From: a plasmid
Sequence record: CP088595.1
DNA: 64,000 bases
Strand: one strand, 5' to 3'
In this document: piece by piece, positions 39,011 to 50,170 of the stretch
Position numbering within the stretch: position 1 is the first letter of the stretch
Layout: every line of letters begins with the position of its first letter
Notes under the pieces: model-generated
The model's database searches: none
Told to the model about the DNA's origin: nothing
What the model saw: only the letters and a program-made list of their open reading frames with translations
Program-made: the position numbers and the translations under genes

Positions 39011-39862
39011 TCAGACTCGTGGCGGCAATGCACCTGGATAATGCCGTGCAATAATATCATTCAGTTTTTCAACAAGGTCAGAACGCTTAAAGACAATGTG
39101 TACGGTCCCTTTCTGGTAGCCACGCACCGTAAAATATTCCCCTTCTAACAGCTTACCGACATTGTCGCCGTTCCCGATAAATTCACCATACTGCGCCCCG
39201 ATGCTGTTCCTGAAGTCAGGAACGTTGCGCCCCTCCAGCAGATAAAACGGACGTACCAGGTCATCCAGTGCCTCCCGTCCGCTGCAGTCCAGCGTCACAC
39301 GCCCATTACTCCAGCGGTACAGCAGGTTTTCAATAATGATTTTCTTACCCAGGCGGCAGGGATTATTGGTTCTGTAATCCCATGACAATTTCCGGTAGAC
39401 ATCAATCAGACCTTGTTCAAACGTCTGCATCTTGCTGGCATTAAGATGGCGGAATGTTGCCAGTACATTGTCCAGGGTGATTTCAGGACAGGTGTCGCTC
39501 ATCAGCTGGCTGTTCCACTCATCACGCTGGCATGAACTCATGAAGGTGTACATGCCCGTATCTGTCATCAGGCGGTCCCAGATTTTCCGGTCGGCAAGAC
39601 GGGTGATATTCCTTTTCGCTTCTTCCGGTTTATCCATGCGACGAACGGAATCAGTCACGCAGTCTTCAAACCCGTAAAGAAAAATATCACCTGACGCATC
39701 GAGCAGAATCCTGCGCGCTGTCGCCAGGCATTCCATCGCCTGCATGAACAGTGCAATACCTTCGTTACGCTGCGCGATGATGCGGTCGATGGCCACAGAC
39801 GGAATAACATCTGTCGTGCCGGCAGTATTCAGGTCAGCAGTGGGTAAAGTCTGATTCATCAC
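39011..39862 (-). CDS. Conserved leading-region hypothetical protein (283 aa)
   Basis: Clean ORF directly downstream of a type-I structured repeat. Confidence 0.5.
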   Translation of the reverse strand: MMNQTLPTADLNTAGTTDVIPSVAIDRIIAQRNEGIALFMQAMECLATARRILLDASGDIFLYGFEDCVTDSVRRMDKPEEAKRNITRLADRKIWDRLMTDTGMYTFMSSCQRDEWNSQLMSDTCPEITLDNVLATFRHLNASKMQTFEQGLIDVYRKLSWDYRTNNPCRLGKKIIIENLLYRWSNGRVTLDCSGREALDDLVRPFYLLEGRNVPDFRNSIGAQYGEFIGNGDNVGKLLEGEYFTVRGYQKGTVHIVFKRSDLVEKLNDIIARHYPGALPPRV

Positions 39863-39899: not shown

Positions 39900-40240
39900 G
39901 TCATTTCCCGGAGGAGCGAAGCTCCTTCTGCCGTCCGGGTCTTCGGGGATTTCCCCGCAGTGGACCTTTCCGACGGGGGACGCTCACCACGTCACGGGGC
40001 AGTTGTCCGGGGGCAGACGCAAAAGTTTTTGACGCCTGCGGCAAAAAGTTTTGTGGCTGGTACATCTCTCCCCTGGATGACTGAAACGGGATGTGGTCGT
40101 GTATATACCCCCGGAAAGTCCGTCTGCGGAGAACAGGCCGCAGTGCGGCGGCAGACAGGCAGAGACAGCTGCGCCATCAGGCGCAGTGGCCTTACACACC
40201 GTAAGGTGTGCAGGGAGCGCCGCATCCGGCGCGACTGAAG
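39900..40240 (-). promoter_or_regulatory. Type-I leading-region structured repeat, copy A (putative Frpo/ssi single-strand promoter)
   Basis: About 85% similar to 43290-43640 and 49630-49980. Internal hairpins CTGCGCCatcaGGCGCAG and CACACCgtcaGGTGTG. Confidence 0.6.
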
Positions 40241-40437: not shown

Positions 40438-40689
40438 ATGACTGGCTGGGAACTGCGAATCTGGCGAAAAAGCATGCTCTGGTCACGCGAAAAAGCGGCC
40501 AGAGAATTTGGCGTGACGCAGAGAACATGGCACGCCTGGGAAAATGCGGAACAGGTGGACGTCACCGTCTGGAGGACCACCCAGGCACTTTCAGTCCGTG
40601 ACCTGCTGCCTCACATGCAGGGGATGCGCAAGGCAGATATCATCAGGCGTCTGGAAAATGAACTGGGGGAAACGGCAGAGGATGTGTGA
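40438..40689 (+). CDS. XRE-type helix-turn-helix regulator (83 aa)
   Basis: The segment AAREFGVTQRTWHAWEN fits an HTH. One of the few plus-strand genes in the leading region. Confidence 0.5.
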   Translation: MTGWELRIWRKSMLWSREKAAREFGVTQRTWHAWENAEQVDVTVWRTTQALSVRDLLPHMQGMRKADIIRRLENELGETAEDV

Positions 40690-40719
40690 GCGTGATTCAC
40701 AGCCTGGCAGAATGCCAGG

Positions 40720-40926
40720 CTACTGCTCATCAGGAAACAGTTTTTTCAGTTCTTCACCGGAAAGTCCGGCTGCCTCCTGAATCCGTTCCGGCGTCCAGCC
40801 CATATCCCGCAGCCGGCAGGCTGCTTCCCGCGCCACTTCAAGCGCACCTTTCTTAAAACCTTCTTTAAAACCTTCGTCGAAACCTTCGTCGAAACCTTTC
40901 TGTATAAGACGTTCTGCAATCGTCAT
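40720..40926 (-). CDS. Stand-alone Rpn C-terminal-domain mini-protein (68 aa), RpnS-like
   Basis: Begins MTIAERL, like the C-terminal 57 aa of the adjacent Rpn ORF. Contains GFDEGF/KEGFKKG repeats. Confidence 0.5.
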   Translation of the reverse strand: MTIAERLIQKGFDEGFDEGFKEGFKKGALEVAREAACRLRDMGWTPERIQEAAGLSGEELKKLFPDEQ

Positions 40927-40987
40927 ACTGTTTTCTCTGCTCCTGCTGGCAAAAGGCCCGGTATTTTGCCGGGCTGTGAGGTTCTCA

Positions 40988-41890
40988 TCAGTGAATGATT
41001 TTCTTCAGTTCGTCATCGGAAAGTCCGGTAGCCTGCTTAATCTGCTCCGGCGTCATCCCCATTTTCTGAAGCTGGCACGCAATAGCCAGGGCTTTTTCAA
41101 GCGCACCTTCCATCCTGCCCTCCTGGCGACCTTTTTGCTCAAGACGTTCTGCGATAGTCATCAGTTTATCCTCATGCTGCGGCAGACGCTCAGCCAGCGC
41201 CCGCATAAATTCCGGTGATACAGAGTCCCCTGCGTTAACGATGTAATGAATCAGAACACGCACCTGCTCGTCTGAAATTTCCACCATGACCTGCGGGAGT
41301 TTGTCCAGCAGCTCCATCATGTCACGATGGCGGATATGCTTCATCAGCAGCGTCAGTGCGGCCATCCGGCGATGGTTCATGATTTCATTGTCATCAACGA
41401 CAGTGATATCAACCAGCGGAAACGGCTTTGTGTATATTTTAGCCGCAAGCGCCGGATTCTCAAAACAGTCCAGCCAGTTCATGCTGTACGGATACGGGCT
41501 GCGCTCACCATGATAGAACAGCACCGGAATCACCAGTGGCAACGTTTTGTGCTGCTCCAGATGTCTCTGCATCGCCGCCACACTGTAACGTAACATGCGG
41601 AAAGGCATGTACAGATTTTCGGTGCTCTGGTGCTCGATGAGCGTATAAACATAGCCGTCTTTACCCCCGGTGGTTTTCACGCTCCAGAGGATATCGCTGG
41701 CGTACTGATGCAGGTCCGGCTCTACAAAGGTGGCGGGTTCCAGCTTCAGCGTGGACAGGTCGCACAACTGCCGGTACTCCGCAGGAAGATGCAGTTCCAG
41801 AAAATCTCTGGCGACGTCGGGATTCGCCAGGAACGACCGGAACGCGGCATCATGCGGCGTGGGCGTCGTGGTGTTTTTCTTCTTACTCAC
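40988..41890 (-). CDS. Rpn-family (YhgA-like, PD-(D/E)XK) recombination-promoting nuclease (300 aa)
   Basis: Resembles the E. coli Rpn/YhgA-like family in overall architecture as I recall it; by-eye family assignment, not searched. An internal GAGGA-N7-ATG at 41161 would yield a 57-aa C-terminal product. Confidence 0.6.
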   Translation of the reverse strand: MSKKKNTTTPTPHDAAFRSFLANPDVARDFLELHLPAEYRQLCDLSTLKLEPATFVEPDLHQYASDILWSVKTTGGKDGYVYTLIEHQSTENLYMPFRMLRYSVAAMQRHLEQHKTLPLVIPVLFYHGERSPYPYSMNWLDCFENPALAAKIYTKPFPLVDITVVDDNEIMNHRRMAALTLLMKHIRHRDMMELLDKLPQVMVEISDEQVRVLIHYIVNAGDSVSPEFMRALAERLPQHEDKLMTIAERLEQKGRQEGRMEGALEKALAIACQLQKMGMTPEQIKQATGLSDDELKKIIH

Positions 41891-42276
41891 GGTTCCTCCA
41901 TCAAATCAGCAGCATCGCAGCAATCATCGCCCAAATCCCCACAACCGAGAGGACAGCAATTGCGTTCAAAGCCATGACAACAATAGCCGCGTTCTGAGTC
42001 ACGGCGTATTTCTTCAGCAATCTCTTCTGCGGAAAGGTAATCAAACTCCTCACGGGCCAGTTCCAGGACCAGCAGATGTTGTTCTGTCGGCAATGTGGCC
42101 ACAAAATTATCAATAGCAGCACTCAAACGTCGCTGATATAGCTCATAAACAAGACCACAACGGGGCATTAGTTCTTCGGATAATAGTTCCAGTTTTGAGC
42201 GAATTCTGTCAGCGTTGAAAGTGACTTCATCAAAAGACATATGAAAAGCTTTGTCAGTATCAAAACAAGACTTCAT
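41887..42276 (-). CDS. Hypothetical acidic Cys-rich protein (129 aa from MKSCF; 154 aa if started at 42351), translationally coupled to the Rpn gene
   Basis: GGAGA RBS before the ATG at 42276. Stop overlaps the Rpn start (ATGA). C-terminus CCHGFERNCCPLGCGDLGDDCCD. Confidence 0.5.
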   Translation of the reverse strand: MKSCFDTDKAFHMSFDEVTFNADRIRSKLELLSEELMPRCGLVYELYQRRLSAAIDNFVATLPTEQHLLVLELAREEFDYLSAEEIAEEIRRDSERGYCCHGFERNCCPLGCGDLGDDCCDAADLMEEP

Positions 42277-42452
42277 TGTTATCTCCAGCCCTCCCGGGCC
42301 CTGAATGAAAGAGAATCTGTTTCCCTTTTCTGTTTTTTGTGGAGACACCATGCAACACAGACGTCGTGATGTTTTTCATCTTGCTCACGGTTCCTCCTGG
42401 TAAAGTACCTGAACACATCCTGCCACCTGCACAGGCAGACGGCAGGGGTTAA

Positions 42453-42719
42453 TCAGTGACAGACCCGTTCAATTTCAAGCGCGCGGAGCAGGTGGCCCCA
42501 TTCGCTGACTTTCATGGCGGGGATACGTACCCGCTTCTGCTCACTGCAGCGTCTGGCGATATGACCGCTCATCGCCAGGACGTCCGGGTTAATCTCATCC
42601 TGTGCCAGCTCCTGACGTCTGAAGCGGGTATGGCGGTGCAGGGGTTTATTCTCCCGCAGGCACTCTTCACGCAGACGCTTTACATACTCGGCGGTTGCGA
42701 AGATAATTGATGGTTTCAT
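42453..42719 (-). CDS. Hypothetical 88-aa basic protein
   Basis: ORF. Confidence 0.35.
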   Translation of the reverse strand: MKPSIIFATAEYVKRLREECLRENKPLHRHTRFRRQELAQDEINPDVLAMSGHIARRCSEQKRVRIPAMKVSEWGHLLRALEIERVCH

Positions 42720-42812: not shown

Positions 42813-43247
42813 TCATTTCGGACAGCGGCGCAGTGCCAGCGCGAGCGCTTTCATCTTCCAGCCTTCCGGCGTGCGATACATCACCTTCCAGTAGCCGTCG
42901 ATGAACACATAATGGAAGCGCACCTCTTCAGTGCTTTCAGTGGCAATAGCCTCCATGAAAGAACGGTACTCACGCGCCTCACTGTCCATCCGGAAACCAC
43001 TGTCACGTCCGTAATAAGCCGTCACACCGTCCACCGGGTTCTGAAGCGTATGCCCGGCGGGTTTGTCGCAACGGGGACCGAGGCAACGGATATCACCGTG
43101 TTCAACCAGGGCTTCGGCCTGCTGACCAGTGGCATAGTGGGTATGCAGGATGCGACCGTTCCAGGTCGGCTCACCGTGCAGGTGGCAGTAAACGGTACGG
43201 AACACCCCGTCGCGGCAAAAAACGGAAATCGTGCTGCTGACTGTCAT
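42813..43247 (-). CDS. Orphan 144-aa protein immediately downstream of type-I repeat copy B
   Basis: ORF. Its position is equivalent to ssb relative to the repeat. Confidence 0.5.
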   Translation of the reverse strand: MTVSSTISVFCRDGVFRTVYCHLHGEPTWNGRILHTHYATGQQAEALVEHGDIRCLGPRCDKPAGHTLQNPVDGVTAYYGRDSGFRMDSEAREYRSFMEAIATESTEEVRFHYVFIDGYWKVMYRTPEGWKMKALALALRRCPK

Positions 43248-43289
43248 GAAAACGTCTCCTTCTGCTGAATCAGGTCGCCGGGCCGACCG

Positions 43290-43800
43290 GTTGCTCCCCG
43301 GAGGGGCGAAAGCCCCTTCTGCCGTCCACTTCTTCGGGGTTTCTCCCCGCAGTGGACCTTTCCGATGGGGCGTCCGTCACCACGTCACGGGGCAGCTGTC
43401 CGGGGGCGGACGCAAAATTTTTTGCCGGGTTTATGGCTAAAAATTTTGTGGACGGTATATCTTCCCCTGGACTGCTGAAACGGGATGTGGTTACTCCAGC
43501 CCCCGGAAAGTCCACAGCGGGAAACAGGCCGCAGGGGTGGCGGCGGAAGGGTTGACTGCGCCATCAGGCGCAGTTGCCTTACACACCGTCAGGTGTGCAG
43601 GGAGCGCCGTTTCCGGCGCGACAGGGGCGGCGCGACCGGAACGGTCGCTGCAAGCCTGGTTTTTCAGACATCGGACCGTAGCGGCAGCCCGAAACCGCGC
43701 CAGCGGGTTCGGCGGAGACTGGCGGGTGCGCCAGCAGCTGCCTGTCGGAGTCGGGCCTGACGACCGGATGCCGCCAGGCAGCCGGGAGCCGAAGGTGTCC
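43290..43800 (-). promoter_or_regulatory. Type-I structured repeat, copy B
   Basis: Matches copies A and C. Its 3' 170 bp (43640-43800) is shared only with copy C. Confidence 0.6.
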
Positions 43801-49629: not shown

Positions 49630-50170
49630 GCCCCTTCAGAGGAGCGAAAGCTCCTCCTGCCGTCCACTTCTTCGGGGTTTCTCCCCGCAGTGGACCTTTC
49701 CGATGGGGGCCCGTTTACCGCCTCACGGGACAGCTGTCCGGGGGCGGACGCAAAATTTTTTGCCGGGTTCATGGCTAAAAATTTTGTGGCCGGTGCATCT
49801 CACCCTGGACAGATGGAACGGGAGGGGGTTACGTCTGCCCCCCGGAAAGTCCACAGCGGGAAACAGGCCGCAGGGGTGGCGGCAGGAGGGAGGACTGCTG
49901 CGCCATCAGGCGCAGTTTCCTCACACACCGTCAGGTGTGCAGGGAGCGCAGGTCACGGCGCGACAGGGGCGGCGCGACAGGGGCGGCGCGACAGGGGCGG
50001 CGCGACCGTAACGGTCGCTGCAAGCCCGGGTTTTCACGCATCGGACCGTAGCGGCAGCCCGAAACCGCGCCAGCGGGTTCGGCGGAGACTGGCGGGTGCG
50101 CCAGCAGCTGCCTGTCGGAGTCGGGCCTGACGACCGGATGCCGCCAGGCAGCCGGGAGCCGAAGTGGGCG
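49630..50170 (-). promoter_or_regulatory. Type-I structured repeat, copy C (upstream of ssb), with a 13-bp tandem array at 49957-50000
   Basis: Matches copies A and B. GGCGGCGCGACAGG repeated about 3.5 times. Confidence 0.6.

What the first reader, a model, noticed from the sequence alone, without database searches (positions are those of the whole stretch)
40720..42351. Leading-region Rpn nuclease module: Rpn with internal RBS, a free RpnS-like mini-gene and a coupled Cys-rich partner
A 300-aa Rpn/YhgA-like PD-(D/E)XK protein (40988-41890) has an internal GAGGA-N7-ATG at 41161 that would produce its 57-aa C-terminal domain alone. Immediately downstream, after a hairpin, a separate 68-aa ORF (40720-40926) encodes a second copy of that domain (also MTIAERL..., with GFDEGF/KEGF repeats). 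Upstream, a 129-aa acidic Cys-rich protein (CCHGFERNCCPLGCGDLGDDCCD) is translationally coupled to the Rpn start (ATGA overlap). Rpn proteins are DNA-cleaving toxins whose small C-terminal fragment is reported, as I recall, to act as an antitoxin. A plasmid that ships a nuclease plus extra decoy or antitoxin copies into a new host may do so as an anti-defence or host-manipulation device. I do not recognise the Cys-rich partner.
Basis: partly seen in the sequence, partly recalled or inferred. Interest (0 to 1): 0.65.

Follow-up and report, generated by a model that had tools for sequence, protein, structure and literature searches.

The report
Plasmid Rpn nuclease toxin–antitoxin module
This is the Rpn DNA-cutting toxin of IncI-type conjugative plasmids, with its built-in small antitoxin and a second free-standing antitoxin-like gene; a near-identical allele (RpnP2) was shown in 2023 to act as a phage-defence system, so the finding is real but essentially already described.

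Summary
The features are all present. The window is an IncI1 (R64/ColIb-P9-type) plasmid, and the module lies 2–4 kb from oriT in the leading region.

- **Rpn nuclease (40988–41890, gene ygdB).** It is a bona fide Rpn/YhgA nuclease. Its first 187 codons are 97–99.5% identical in DNA to RpnP2 of the E. coli ECOR13 plasmid. Zhong et al. (PNAS 2023) showed RpnP2 to be a toxic endonuclease, blocked by a small protein made from an internal start, that defends against T-even phages.
- **Internal start (GAGGA-N7-ATG, 41161).** It is the homologue of that validated internal start.
- **68-aa ORF (40720–40926).** It fits the downstream free-standing "RpnSs" class described in the same paper. It is conserved in about 2,100 plasmids, is under purifying selection, and varies by 0–6 four-residue repeats.
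- **Cys-rich "partner".** This is CcgAII, an uncharacterised leading-region gene of IncN plasmids. Here it sits in a 498-bp insertion flanked by a duplicated rpn start. Only about a quarter of these loci carry it, and elsewhere it occurs without Rpn, so it is not a dedicated partner.

The anti-defence or decoy idea has no positive support.

New details from this work: the Rpn C-terminal cassettes are swapped among plasmids, and displaced cassettes accumulate downstream as orphan small genes. The leading-region position is not discussed in the literature I could search.

The parts
43270..43760 (.). Frpo/ssi-like repeat, a candidate single-strand DNA promoter. It lies immediately upstream, in the sense of transcription, of ygcA-ygdA-ccgAII-rpn.
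   Evidence: It is one of three copies in the window; the others are at 39907–40235 and 49639–50130 (repeats D2, D4 and D7–D9). The + strand of 43300–43640 folds as a long imperfect hairpin, z = -8.3.
42813..43247 (-). ygcA, a 144-aa leading-region gene of unknown function.
   Evidence: ORF; annotated in pN600 and ColIb-P9; hits phrog_1987.
42453..42719 (-). ygdA (88 aa). In RpnP2-type plasmids this gene lies directly upstream of rpn.
   Evidence: The RpnP2 gBlock AO591 matches window 42688–42370 at 95%.
42346..42397 (-). Upstream copy of the duplicated rpn ribosome-binding site and first 13 codons. It forms the left border of the ccgAII insertion.
   Evidence: Direct repeat D5, 81% identical to 41848–41899. 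A pattern search finds only these two copies against 0 expected by chance.
42260..42388 (-). 42-codon leader ORF. It starts at the duplicated GTG and ends 17 nt inside ccgAII.
   Evidence: In frame with ORF 42260–42418; sequence read. Whether it is translated is inferred only.
41887..42276 (-). ccgAII: a 129-aa acidic protein with a conserved C-x-H-G-x5-CCPLGCGDL motif. It is an inserted cassette, and its stop overlaps the rpn GTG.
   Evidence: Annotated ccgAII in pN600. It is 57% identical to IncN CcgAII. Family alignment A1. The AF2 model has four helices and a disordered Cys-rich tail, pLDDT 76. No fold match in the PDB.
40988..41890 (-). rpnL (ygdB): a 300-aa Rpn family PD-(D/E)XK nuclease, the toxin.
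   Evidence: Pfam and NCBIfam hits. In the first 133 residues it differs from RpnP2 only by K77E once the engineered mutations are set aside. The catalytic residues D14, D66, E86 and Q88 are all present.
41436..41463 (-). Sigma-70-like promoter inside rpn (TTGAGA-16-TAAAAT), a candidate promoter for the short rpnS transcript.
   Evidence: Consensus scan, 10 of 12 matches. Internal transcription start sites are reported for all K-12 rpn genes. Function here is inferred.
41169..41173 (-). Internal Shine-Dalgarno sequence GAGGA, 7 nt upstream of the rpnS ATG.
   Evidence: Sequence read. The homologous codons were mutated to abolish RpnP2-S (AO714).
40988..41161 (-). rpnS: the in-frame 57-aa C-terminal product (M244–H300). 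It is an 'A-type' cassette with two 4-residue repeats (RQEG, RMEG) and is the predicted antitoxin.
   Evidence: RpnA-S (7TH0) aligns from M244. The same 57-aa protein, differing at two residues (DD to EA), occurs as a free-standing gene in L031–L040.
40951..40974 (-). Hairpin with T-run (terminator-like) between rpn and rpnSs.
   Evidence: Fold. It is conserved in 8 loci, with a compensatory stem change in L010.
40720..40926 (-). rpnSs: a free-standing 68-aa RpnS homologue. It is an 'S-type' cassette with four 4-residue repeats (FDEG, FDEG, FKEG, FKKG).
   Evidence: E = 1e-17 to the Rpn C-terminus. TIGR01784 C-terminal match, E = 1.7e-6. 2,093 plasmids carry it at full length, with lengths of 52–76 aa in steps of 4. 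dN/dS is 0.09–0.37. PGAP names it 'RpnC/YadD family protein'.
40702..40720 (.). GC-rich hairpin (GCCTGGCA-TTC-TGCCAGGC) between the convergent rpnSs and ygeA genes.
   Evidence: Read. A terminator function is inferred.
40438..40689 (+). ygeA: an 83-aa helix-turn-helix protein, convergent with the module.
   Evidence: Pfam HTH_31, E = 7e-5, which is below the curated cut-off. Annotated as an HTH regulator in RefSeq plasmids.

Best explanation
The region is the plasmid-borne Rpn toxin–antitoxin (phage-defence) locus of IncI-complex plasmids. It is an allele of the characterised RpnP2 locus.

**How it works.** RpnL (300 aa) is a PD-(D/E)XK DNA endonuclease that is toxic on its own. The same gene produces RpnS, the 57-aa C-terminal helical domain. 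RpnS is made from an internal Shine-Dalgarno/ATG, probably on a short transcript from an internal promoter. RpnS binds the identical domain in RpnL and holds the nuclease inactive until a trigger such as phage infection releases it.

**The 68-aa gene.** It is a free-standing 'RpnSs', a diverged paralogue of the RpnS cassette. This locus evolves by exchanging C-terminal cassettes at conserved junctions. Displaced cassettes remain downstream as orphan small genes, and the S-type gene is the terminal, always free-standing member. It is a maintained coding gene. It differs from the resident RpnS in both sequence and repeat number, so by the published specificity rule it is probably not the primary antitoxin of the adjacent RpnL. 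Its target is unknown.

**CcgAII.** It is an unrelated leading-region gene that recombined into the rpn 5' end. It now shares the transcript and overlaps the rpn start.

**Shown versus inferred.**
- Shown here: family membership, catalytic residues, homology of the internal start, cassette mosaicism, the insertion structure, and conservation.
- Shown by others on a near-identical N-domain allele: toxicity, antitoxin action and anti-phage activity.
- Inferred: expression of RpnS and RpnSs from this allele, the internal promoter, and early expression from the upstream Frpo-like element.
For: - **Family membership.** Transposase_31 at E = 6e-79 and TIGR01784 above its cut-off.
- **Same locus as RpnP2.** gBlock AO591 (ygdA 3' end plus the rpnP2 start) matches window 42688–42370 at 95%, then 41899–41792 at 99%. 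AO730 matches at 97% over 399 nt with the engineered changes included. AO714 matches at 99.5% over 41519–41331, after which homology ends.
- **Catalytic residues.** All four residues mutated in the published active-site mutant are intact here.
- **Published function.** RpnL toxicity, the RpnS antitoxin, repeat-number specificity, downstream RpnSs genes and RpnP2 defence against T-even phages are all reported.
- **Internal start.** RpnA-S (7TH0) aligns from M244, and every K-12 Rpn has a Met at the equivalent position.
- **RpnSs is a maintained gene.** It occurs in 2,105 plasmids and in 1,341 of 5,426 complete E. coli genomes, almost always on plasmids. Among the 13 S-type DNA alleles compared, the frame is always kept, length differs by multiples of 12 nt, and dN/dS is 0.09–0.37.
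- **Cassette model.** In L018/L019 and L031–L040, an RpnL with a B- or C-type C-terminus is followed by a free A-type RpnS, which in L031–L040 is nearly identical to the window's internal RpnS, and then by the S-type gene.
- **ccgAII is an insertion.** It is flanked by the 52-nt direct repeat D5. It is present or absent on several cassette backgrounds and stands alone in IncN plasmids.
Against: - No experiment exists for this exact allele (A-type C-terminus) or for the S-type RpnSs. The published RpnP2 constructs carried only 101 bp downstream, so RpnSs was truncated.
- The Shine-Dalgarno sequence of RpnSs sits 13 nt from its ATG, which is sub-optimal. A terminator-like hairpin precedes it, and no promoter-like site was found for it.
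- PADLOC (2023) has no model that recognises the locus.
- A toxin or defence gene among the first genes to enter a recipient is unexpected and is not explained by the defence model.
- The AF2 monomer model of RpnSs is of low confidence, and its match to 7TH0 is not significant.
Confidence: 0.85

Rival explanations
1. **Anti-defence or decoy device.** The plasmid delivers RpnS-like proteins early into the recipient. There they neutralise RpnL nucleases of the recipient chromosome or of resident plasmids, or they otherwise manipulate the host.
For: - The module lies 2–4 kb from oriT, in the orientation of leading-region genes, and downstream of an Frpo-like element.
- The S-type RpnSs never matches the adjacent RpnS in type, and no full-length Rpn with an S-type C-terminus was found. 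Its target is therefore not obviously in cis.
- One plasmid contig (L021) has lost the catalytic part of rpn but keeps both small genes.
- Orphan cassettes accumulate downstream.
Against: - RpnSs is at most 37% identical over the best local alignment to the C-termini of K-12 RpnA–E and ypaA. Its nearest relative is its own neighbour's RpnS, at 56%.
- Published specificity requires the same domain and the same repeat number.
- Repeat number is hypervariable, which would defeat a fixed decoy.
- The closely related RpnP2 behaves as a defence system, not an anti-defence system.
- The two leading-region anti-defence papers I searched do not mention Rpn.
Confidence: 0.08
2. **RpnSs as a second cognate antitoxin.** It acts on the adjacent RpnL despite the repeat mismatch, adding antitoxin dosage. 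This could matter during establishment, if the whole operon is transcribed strongly from single-stranded DNA.
For: - It is retained almost universally next to rpn and is under purifying selection.
- It shares the conserved N-terminal MTIAERL-QKG and C-terminal GLS-EELKK segments with RpnS.
- Koonin's commentary suggests that a second copy may add regulatory flexibility.
Against: - Identity is only 56%, and repeat counts never matched in the sampled loci with the A-type cassette. Repeat counts vary independently of RpnL: C-type RpnL with 3–6 repeats is found with S-type genes of 3 repeats.
- One extra repeat was enough to abolish inhibition in RpnC.
- RpnP2 constructs lacking an intact RpnSs were non-toxic as long as the internal RpnS was made.
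Confidence: 0.2
3. **CcgAII as a functional third component of the Rpn system**, for example a metal-binding regulator or sensor, translationally coupled to RpnL.
For: - The stop and start overlap (GTGA), and the genes lie on the same strand and probably the same transcript.
- The Cys/His motif is conserved.
- An IncN annotation table gives 'Prevention of RecA overproduction' for ccgAII. That could fit a nuclease that induces the SOS response, but the table cites no evidence.
Against: - The gene is absent from the RpnP2 locus and from ColIb-P9, and from every sampled locus with a B-type cassette. Its presence is polymorphic on the A- and C-type cassette backgrounds.
- About 630 plasmid records, mostly IncN, carry CcgAII homologues at under 60% identity. 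In the one IncN record inspected (pMAK2) it sits beside ccgAI and mucAB with no Rpn.
- The overlap arises from the insertion junction: the last four codons are the rpn Shine-Dalgarno region.
- RpnP2 works without it.
Confidence: 0.05

Closest known systems
RpnP2 (RpnL/RpnS) of the E. coli ECOR13 plasmid (Zhong et al., PNAS 2023, PMC10400941)
   Same: - It is the same plasmid locus: ygdA, then rpn, then a small downstream gene.
- The N-terminal nuclease domain is 97–99.5% identical in DNA, with the same four catalytic residues.
- The start codon and Shine-Dalgarno sequence are the same.
- The internal GAGGA–ATG start and the downstream S-type small ORF are also the same.
   Different: - From about codon 187 the window carries a different C-terminal cassette. 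It is A-type, EQKG(RQEG/RMEG)…QLQKMGMTPEQ, instead of B-type, KQEG(IQQG)n…ELRNAGMP.
- The window also has a 498-bp ccgAII insertion upstream.
- It may correspond to the paper's 'RpnP1' or to an unnamed allele. I could not tell, because the sequences are given only in figures.
rpnE–ypaA (RpnE-Ss) and rpnC–rpnC-Ss of E. coli chromosomes
   Same: A free-standing RpnS homologue lies immediately downstream of an rpn gene. It varies in 4-residue repeat number, and its closest relative is the upstream gene's own C-terminus.
   Different: The plasmid S-type copy is much more diverged from its neighbour (56% identity). It is linked to at least three different RpnL C-terminal cassettes. In some plasmids it is preceded by a second orphan RpnS.
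Orphan C-terminal toxin/immunity cassette arrays downstream of cdiA and rhs genes (comparison from general knowledge)
   Same: C-terminal modules are replaced by recombination at a conserved junction, and the displaced modules persist downstream as orphans.
   Different: Here the displaced module is the antitoxin/regulatory domain of an intracellular nuclease, not a delivered toxin with an immunity gene. This is an analogy only; nothing was tested.
CcgAII of IncN plasmids (R46/pKM101 CUP-controlled gene)
   Same: It is 55–57% identical over residues 26–106, with the invariant LYQ-R-S, F-Y and C-x-H-G-x5-CCPLGCGDL motifs, and it lies in a plasmid leading or establishment region.
   Different: - The IncI version has an N-terminal extension.
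- It also has a C-terminal DDCCDAADLMEEP tail, created by read-through into the rpn 5' region.
- It sits inside the rpn operon rather than after ccgAI.

Membership tests
Rpn (YhgA-like) recombination-promoting nucleases | N-terminal PD-(D/E)XK domain that matches the family models | tested here: met
   PF04754 at E = 5.8e-79 over residues 11–207; TIGR01784 at 184.7 bits against a cut-off of 52.1. The domain is 57–63% identical to K-12 RpnA–E over the N-domain.
Rpn (YhgA-like) recombination-promoting nucleases | Catalytic residues intact (those mutated in the RpnP2 active-site mutant) | tested here: met
   D14, D66, E86 and Q88 are present. The published mutant changes exactly these residues.
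Rpn (YhgA-like) recombination-promoting nucleases | Variable C-terminal helical domain with 4-residue repeats | tested here: met
   The window has RQEG and RMEG repeats. Alleles with 0–5 repeats of the same cassette occur in other plasmids. HTH_Rpn_C (PF27070) is precomputed on allelic proteins.
Rpn (YhgA-like) recombination-promoting nucleases | Internal translation start that yields RpnS | tested here: met
   At sequence level only. GAGGA-N7-ATG lies at M244, homologous to RpnA M244 (7TH0 aligns from it) and to the mutated RpnP2 site. Translation itself cannot be tested here.
Rpn (YhgA-like) recombination-promoting nucleases | RpnL toxicity and endonuclease activity, blocked by RpnS; phage defence | not testable with these tools
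   Published for RpnA, RpnB and RpnP2, but not for this allele.
Free-standing RpnSs | Small gene directly downstream of rpn on the same strand, homologous to the Rpn C-terminal domain | tested here: met
   It lies 61 nt downstream. BLASTP gives E = 1e-17 and 56% identity. It matches the C-terminal ends of the TIGR01784 and PRK09956 models.
Free-standing RpnSs | Number of 4-residue repeats varies between strains | tested here: met
   0–6 repeats, giving 52–76 aa, always in frame.
Free-standing RpnSs | Clusters with the upstream gene's own RpnS rather than with other Rpn types | tested here: inconclusive
   Its nearest relative is the neighbour's RpnS (56%, against at most 37% over the best local alignment for K-12 proteins). 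However, the same S-type gene is linked to three different RpnL cassettes. No phylogeny was built.
Free-standing RpnSs | RpnS three-helix fold | tested here: inconclusive
   The AF2 monomer model has pLDDT 67. 7TH0 appears only at rank 8, with E = 4.1 and a TM-score normalised to the target of 0.64.
Free-standing RpnSs | The protein is made | not testable with these tools
   Inferred from dN/dS of 0.09–0.37 and from frame conservation.
CcgAII | Sequence homology to IncN CcgAII, including the Cys/His motif | tested here: met
   tblastn gives 55–57% identity at E = 1e-21 to 3e-22. Alignment A1 shows the invariant residues C99, G102, C108, P109 and G113.
CcgAII | Control by a CUP element or ArdK operator | not tested
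   The upstream region here is a duplicated rpn 5' end, not an obvious CUP element. No CUP model was available.
Leading-region anti-defence genes | Position next to oriT on the first-transferred side, transcribed towards oriT, downstream of an Frpo-like element | tested here: met
   Gene map of pN600 and ColIb-P9; repeats and ssDNA fold.
Leading-region anti-defence genes | Demonstrated inhibition of a host defence system | not testable with these tools
   No evidence was found in the literature searched.

The most novel reading that the evidence does not exclude
The orphan RpnS-like genes are kept because they act in trans. These are the S-type gene here, plus the displaced A-type copies in other plasmids. 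Expressed early from the leading region, they would give the incoming plasmid or its new host immunity to RpnL nucleases of rival IncI-family plasmids or of earlier cassette types. That would make them an anti-toxin or anti-defence 'memory' array analogous to orphan immunity genes. CcgAII would be a separate establishment factor that dampens the SOS/RecA response.
Probability: 0.1. Interest if true: 0.6.

Novelty: already known. Interest (0 to 1): 0.25.

Why it matters
The finding mainly shows that the first-stage reader can recognise a gene-within-gene toxin–antitoxin system from raw sequence. The system itself was published in 2023, and an allele of this exact locus was the experimental model.

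Three points remain open and are cheap to test:
- Why a DNA-cutting toxin/defence module sits among the very first genes of IncI plasmids to enter a recipient. About a quarter of complete E. coli genomes carry the locus.
- What the always-free S-type RpnSs binds.
- What CcgAII does.

The cassette-replacement trail could explain how Rpn specificity diversifies.

Tried and rejected
- **CcgAII function.** I tried Pfam, NCBIfam, PADLOC and PHROGs, and an AF2 model with Foldseek against the PDB. None was informative. The 'CbiX' name in some records is unsupported. AFDB50 was unavailable.
- **Decoy against chromosomal Rpn.** I compared RpnSs with the C-termini of K-12 RpnA–E and ypaA, ran a blastn search of 5,426 E. 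coli genomes and searched 1.84 billion representative proteins. No full-length Rpn with an S-type C-terminus turned up. One caveat: at 50% clustering, such a protein could hide behind a representative with another C-terminus.
- **Apparent anti-correlation of repeat numbers.** In the first five A-type loci, RpnS and RpnSs repeat numbers seemed anti-correlated. This did not hold once C-type loci were added, and I treat it as a sampling effect.
- **Naming the allele.** I could not decide whether the window allele is 'RpnP1', because the sequences appear only in figures and accession searches of the supplements found nothing.
- **Fold match of RpnSs to 7TH0.** Not significant.
- **Promoter for rpnSs.** No sigma-70-like promoter was found.
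- **Literature.** Searches for Rpn in leading regions or IncI plasmids found nothing beyond Zhong et al. and the accompanying commentary.
Full report
**1. What is there**

- A 300-aa ORF runs from a GTG at 41890 to 40988.
- A 68-aa ORF occupies 40926–40720.
- A Cys-rich ORF lies upstream. Its annotated form is 129 aa, from the ATG at 42276 to 41887.

The 300-aa protein matches Pfam Transposase_31 (YhgA-like) at E = 5.8e-79. It matches the NCBIfam Rpn family model TIGR01784 at 184.7 bits against a cut-off of 52.1. The 68-aa protein aligns to residues 244–298 of the large protein at 56% identity (E = 1e-17), with an 8-residue insertion equal to two 4-residue repeats. It also matches the C-terminal end of the Rpn family models.

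The internal GAGGA lies 7 nt before the ATG at 41161, which encodes M244. A GCCCGG-N7-CCGGGC hairpin with a T-run separates the large and small genes.

Two corrections are needed. The overlap between the Cys-rich ORF and rpn is GTGA, not ATGA. The rpn Shine-Dalgarno sequence lies within the last codons of the upstream ORF.

**2. Context**

The 2.4-kb region is 100% identical to IncI1 plasmids such as pEK204 and pN600, and about 2,080 PLSDB plasmids share it. In pN600 the genes are annotated ygeA, (unnamed), ygdB, ccgAII, ygdA and ygcA. They lie between oriT/nikA and ardA-psiA-psiB-ssb, which is the leading region.

All but ygeA are transcribed towards oriT. Three Frpo/ssi-like repeats occur in the window, at 39907–40235, 43270–43760 and 49639–50130. 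The middle one sits just upstream of ygcA-ygdA-ccgAII-rpn. Its + strand folds as a long hairpin with z = -8.3. Early transcription from single-stranded DNA in the recipient is therefore plausible, but it is inferred.

**3. Comparison with published work**

Zhong et al. (PNAS 2023) established the following:
- Rpn proteins are toxic endonucleases (RpnL).
- Each rpn gene has an internal translation start producing RpnS, the C-terminal domain.
- RpnS binds and blocks RpnL.
- Specificity depends on the number of 4-residue repeats.
- Some loci have a second, free-standing copy downstream (RpnSs), such as ypaA after rpnE.
- A plasmid-encoded RpnP2 from ECOR13 protects against T-even phages.

The primer and gBlock sequences in their Dataset S2 let me compare RpnP2 with the window directly:
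- AO591 (300 bp upstream plus the start of rpnP2) matches window 42688–42370 at 95%. This stretch is ygdA and the intergenic region. The match then jumps to 41899–41792 at 99%.
- AO730 matches 41890–41492 at 97%, with its engineered mutations included.
- AO714 matches 41519–41331 at 99.5%, after which homology stops.

Over the first 133 residues the window protein differs from RpnP2 only by K77E, apart from the four engineered active-site changes (D14A, D66A, E86A, Q88K). All four native residues are present.

The window therefore carries the same locus and essentially the same nuclease domain as the experimentally studied RpnP2. It differs from about codon 187 onwards, where it has a different C-terminal region.

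The internal start is homologous to the validated ones. The crystallised RpnA-S (7TH0) aligns from M244. All K-12 Rpn proteins have a Met at the equivalent position. The codons mutated to abolish RpnP2-S correspond to the window's GAGGA…ATG. A sigma-70-like site inside rpn (41463–41436) is a candidate for the internal promoter that the paper reports for K-12 genes.

**4. The free small gene**

tblastn finds the 68-aa ORF in 2,105 plasmids, at full length in 2,093, with match lengths from 156 to 228 nt in steps of 12. It is present in 1,341 of 5,426 complete E. coli genomes, with 2,617 places on plasmids against 29 on chromosomes. Recent PGAP annotation calls it 'RpnC/YadD family protein'. A Pfam family, HTH_Rpn_C (PF27070), now covers this domain.

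In the 60-odd loci I retrieved, the ORF is always in frame. Repeat number ranges from 0 to 6. Outside the repeats, dN/dS is 0.09–0.37 across the 13 S-type DNA alleles compared. It is therefore a maintained coding gene.

The published RpnP2 constructs ended 101 bp after rpn, inside codon ~13 of this ORF (primers AO619 and AO738 match 40908–40887). Its function has thus not been tested.

Many records give it a 21-aa N-terminal extension. This is an artefact of length variation in the terminator T-run, which puts an ATG overlapping the rpn stop in frame.

**5. Cassette structure (new detail)**

RpnL C-termini fall into at least three types:

| Type | Sequence signature | Example |
|---|---|---|
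| A | EQKG(RQEG/RMEG)n ALEKALAIACQLQKMGMTPEQ | the window |
| B | KQEG(IQQG)n ALQKAREIARELRNAGMP | RpnP2, ColIb-P9 |
| C | EQQG(IQKG/IQQG)n RMEEKQDIARQLQKTGMPSAQ | L031, L048 |

The downstream gene is a fourth type, S: IQKG(FxxG)n ALEVAREAACRLRDMGWTPER…PDEQ. In my sample, S is always free-standing and always last.

In L018/L019 (B-type RpnL) and L031–L040 (C-type RpnL), a free A-type RpnS lies between RpnL and the S-type gene. In L031–L040 this free copy is 57 aa and differs at two residues from the window's internal RpnS. In L018/L019 it is a 53-aa copy with one repeat.

Breakpoints lie at about codon 187 and at the conserved ATGACNATTGCAGAACGTCT that begins every cassette. This suggests that C-terminal cassettes are replaced by recombination and that displaced ones persist downstream.

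Zhong et al. had already noted that RpnSs genes can arise, be lost or be fused. This is therefore an elaboration, not a new principle.

Repeat numbers of RpnL and the S-type gene vary independently. An apparent anti-correlation in the first five loci disappeared with more data.

The S-type protein is closest to its neighbour's RpnS (56%). It is at most 37% identical over the best local alignment to the K-12 RpnA–E and ypaA C-termini. No full-length Rpn with an S-type C-terminus was found among the best hits of two large searches.

One plasmid contig (L021) has lost the catalytic 5' part of rpn but keeps both small genes.

**6. The Cys-rich protein**

It is CcgAII. The family is small, with 58 clusters in 5.8 billion proteins, and is confined to plasmids of enterobacteria and a few others. 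The conserved core ends in C-x-H-G-x5-CCPLGCGDL.

AF2 gives four helices followed by a poorly modelled Cys-rich tail (pLDDT 76). Foldseek against the PDB finds nothing, and PADLOC and PHROGs find nothing useful.

In the IncN plasmid pMAK2 it is a 106-aa stand-alone gene next to ccgAI and mucAB, with no Rpn nearby.

In the window it lies in a 498-bp segment flanked by a 52-nt direct repeat (41848–41899 and 42346–42397, 81% identical). That repeat is the rpn Shine-Dalgarno sequence plus the first 13 codons. The upstream copy starts a 42-codon leader ORF that ends inside ccgAII.

The segment is absent from the RpnP2 locus, from ColIb-P9 and from many other plasmids. Where present, it occurs on several cassette backgrounds. 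About 510 of the roughly 2,080 plasmids with this region carry it.

The C-terminal DDCCDAADLMEEP tail is specific to the IncI version, and its last codons are the rpn ribosome-binding region. CcgAII is therefore an independent leading-region gene that recombined into the rpn 5' end, not a dedicated Rpn partner.

One IncN annotation table lists its function as 'Prevention of RecA overproduction' without citing evidence. I treat this as a lead only.

**7. Mechanism and rivals**

The best-supported reading (confidence 0.85) is an RpnL/RpnS toxin–antitoxin phage-defence module of the RpnP type, with an orphan RpnSs and an unrelated inserted gene.

| Rival reading | Confidence | Main argument against it |
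|---|---|---|
| Anti-defence or decoy | 0.08 | Lacks positive evidence |
| RpnSs as a second cognate antitoxin | 0.2 | The published repeat-matching rule and the independent variation of repeat numbers |
| CcgAII as a third component | 0.05 | Its polymorphic presence and its independent occurrence elsewhere |

**8. Literature on the leading-region context**

The two leading-region papers I searched do not mention Rpn. No paper in the library links Rpn to IncI plasmids or to leading regions. The position of a toxin/defence module among the first genes to enter a recipient is an unexplained, modestly interesting point.

**9. Verdict**

The system is already known, and annotation pipelines already name both genes. 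Interest is low (0.25).

Three open points remain: the target of the S-type RpnSs, the function of CcgAII, and the reason for the leading-region position.

Noticed in passing
window 39907-40235, 43270-43760, 49639-50130: There are three copies of a 330–490-bp repeat (82–86% identical). The + strand of the middle copy folds into a long imperfect hairpin (z = -8.3). They look like the Frpo/ssi single-strand promoters of leading regions. They lie upstream of ygfB, of ygcA-rpn and of ssb respectively.
   Followed up: partly
window 42260-42388 (minus strand): A 42-codon leader ORF starts at the duplicated rpn Shine-Dalgarno/GTG and ends 17 nt inside ccgAII. It may couple ccgAII translation to the strong rpn ribosome-binding site.
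   Followed up: no
L018, L019, L031–L040 (E. coli plasmid contigs), locus coordinates about 2369–2819: Some plasmids carry two free-standing RpnS-like genes after rpn. The first is nearly identical to the window's internal RpnS. Displaced C-terminal cassettes therefore seem to accumulate as orphans.
   Followed up: partly
L021 (GCA_001012335.1), homology to the window starts at 41563: This is an rpn allele that lacks the first ~109 codons, including all catalytic residues. It still keeps the internal-promoter region, RpnS and RpnSs, so the antitoxin-like genes are retained without the toxin. Only one example was seen.
   Followed up: partly
window 40950-40990 and the same region in L004–L010: The length of the terminator T-run varies between plasmids. 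This shifts an ATG that overlaps the rpn stop (TGATGA) in or out of frame with rpnSs. As a result, many database entries give rpnSs a spurious 21-aa N-terminal extension (89, 85, 81 or 77 aa).
   Followed up: yes
window 41331 and 41161: There are recombination breakpoints in rpn. Homology to RpnP2 ends at about codon 187. A- and C-type alleles share the linker but diverge just after the conserved MTIAERL start of the RpnS cassette.
   Followed up: partly
window 41887-42276: Some GenBank records label CcgAII 'cobalamin biosynthesis protein CbiX', which no profile search supports. An IncN plasmid annotation table (PMC3347995) gives 'Prevention of RecA overproduction' without citing evidence.
   Followed up: partly
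window 39011-39862 and 42813-43247: ygfB (DUF4942) resembles part of phage proteins annotated as DNA methyltransferase (phrog_6263). ygcA has phage homologues of unknown function (phrog_1987). Both are uncharacterised leading-region genes flanking the module.
   Followed up: no
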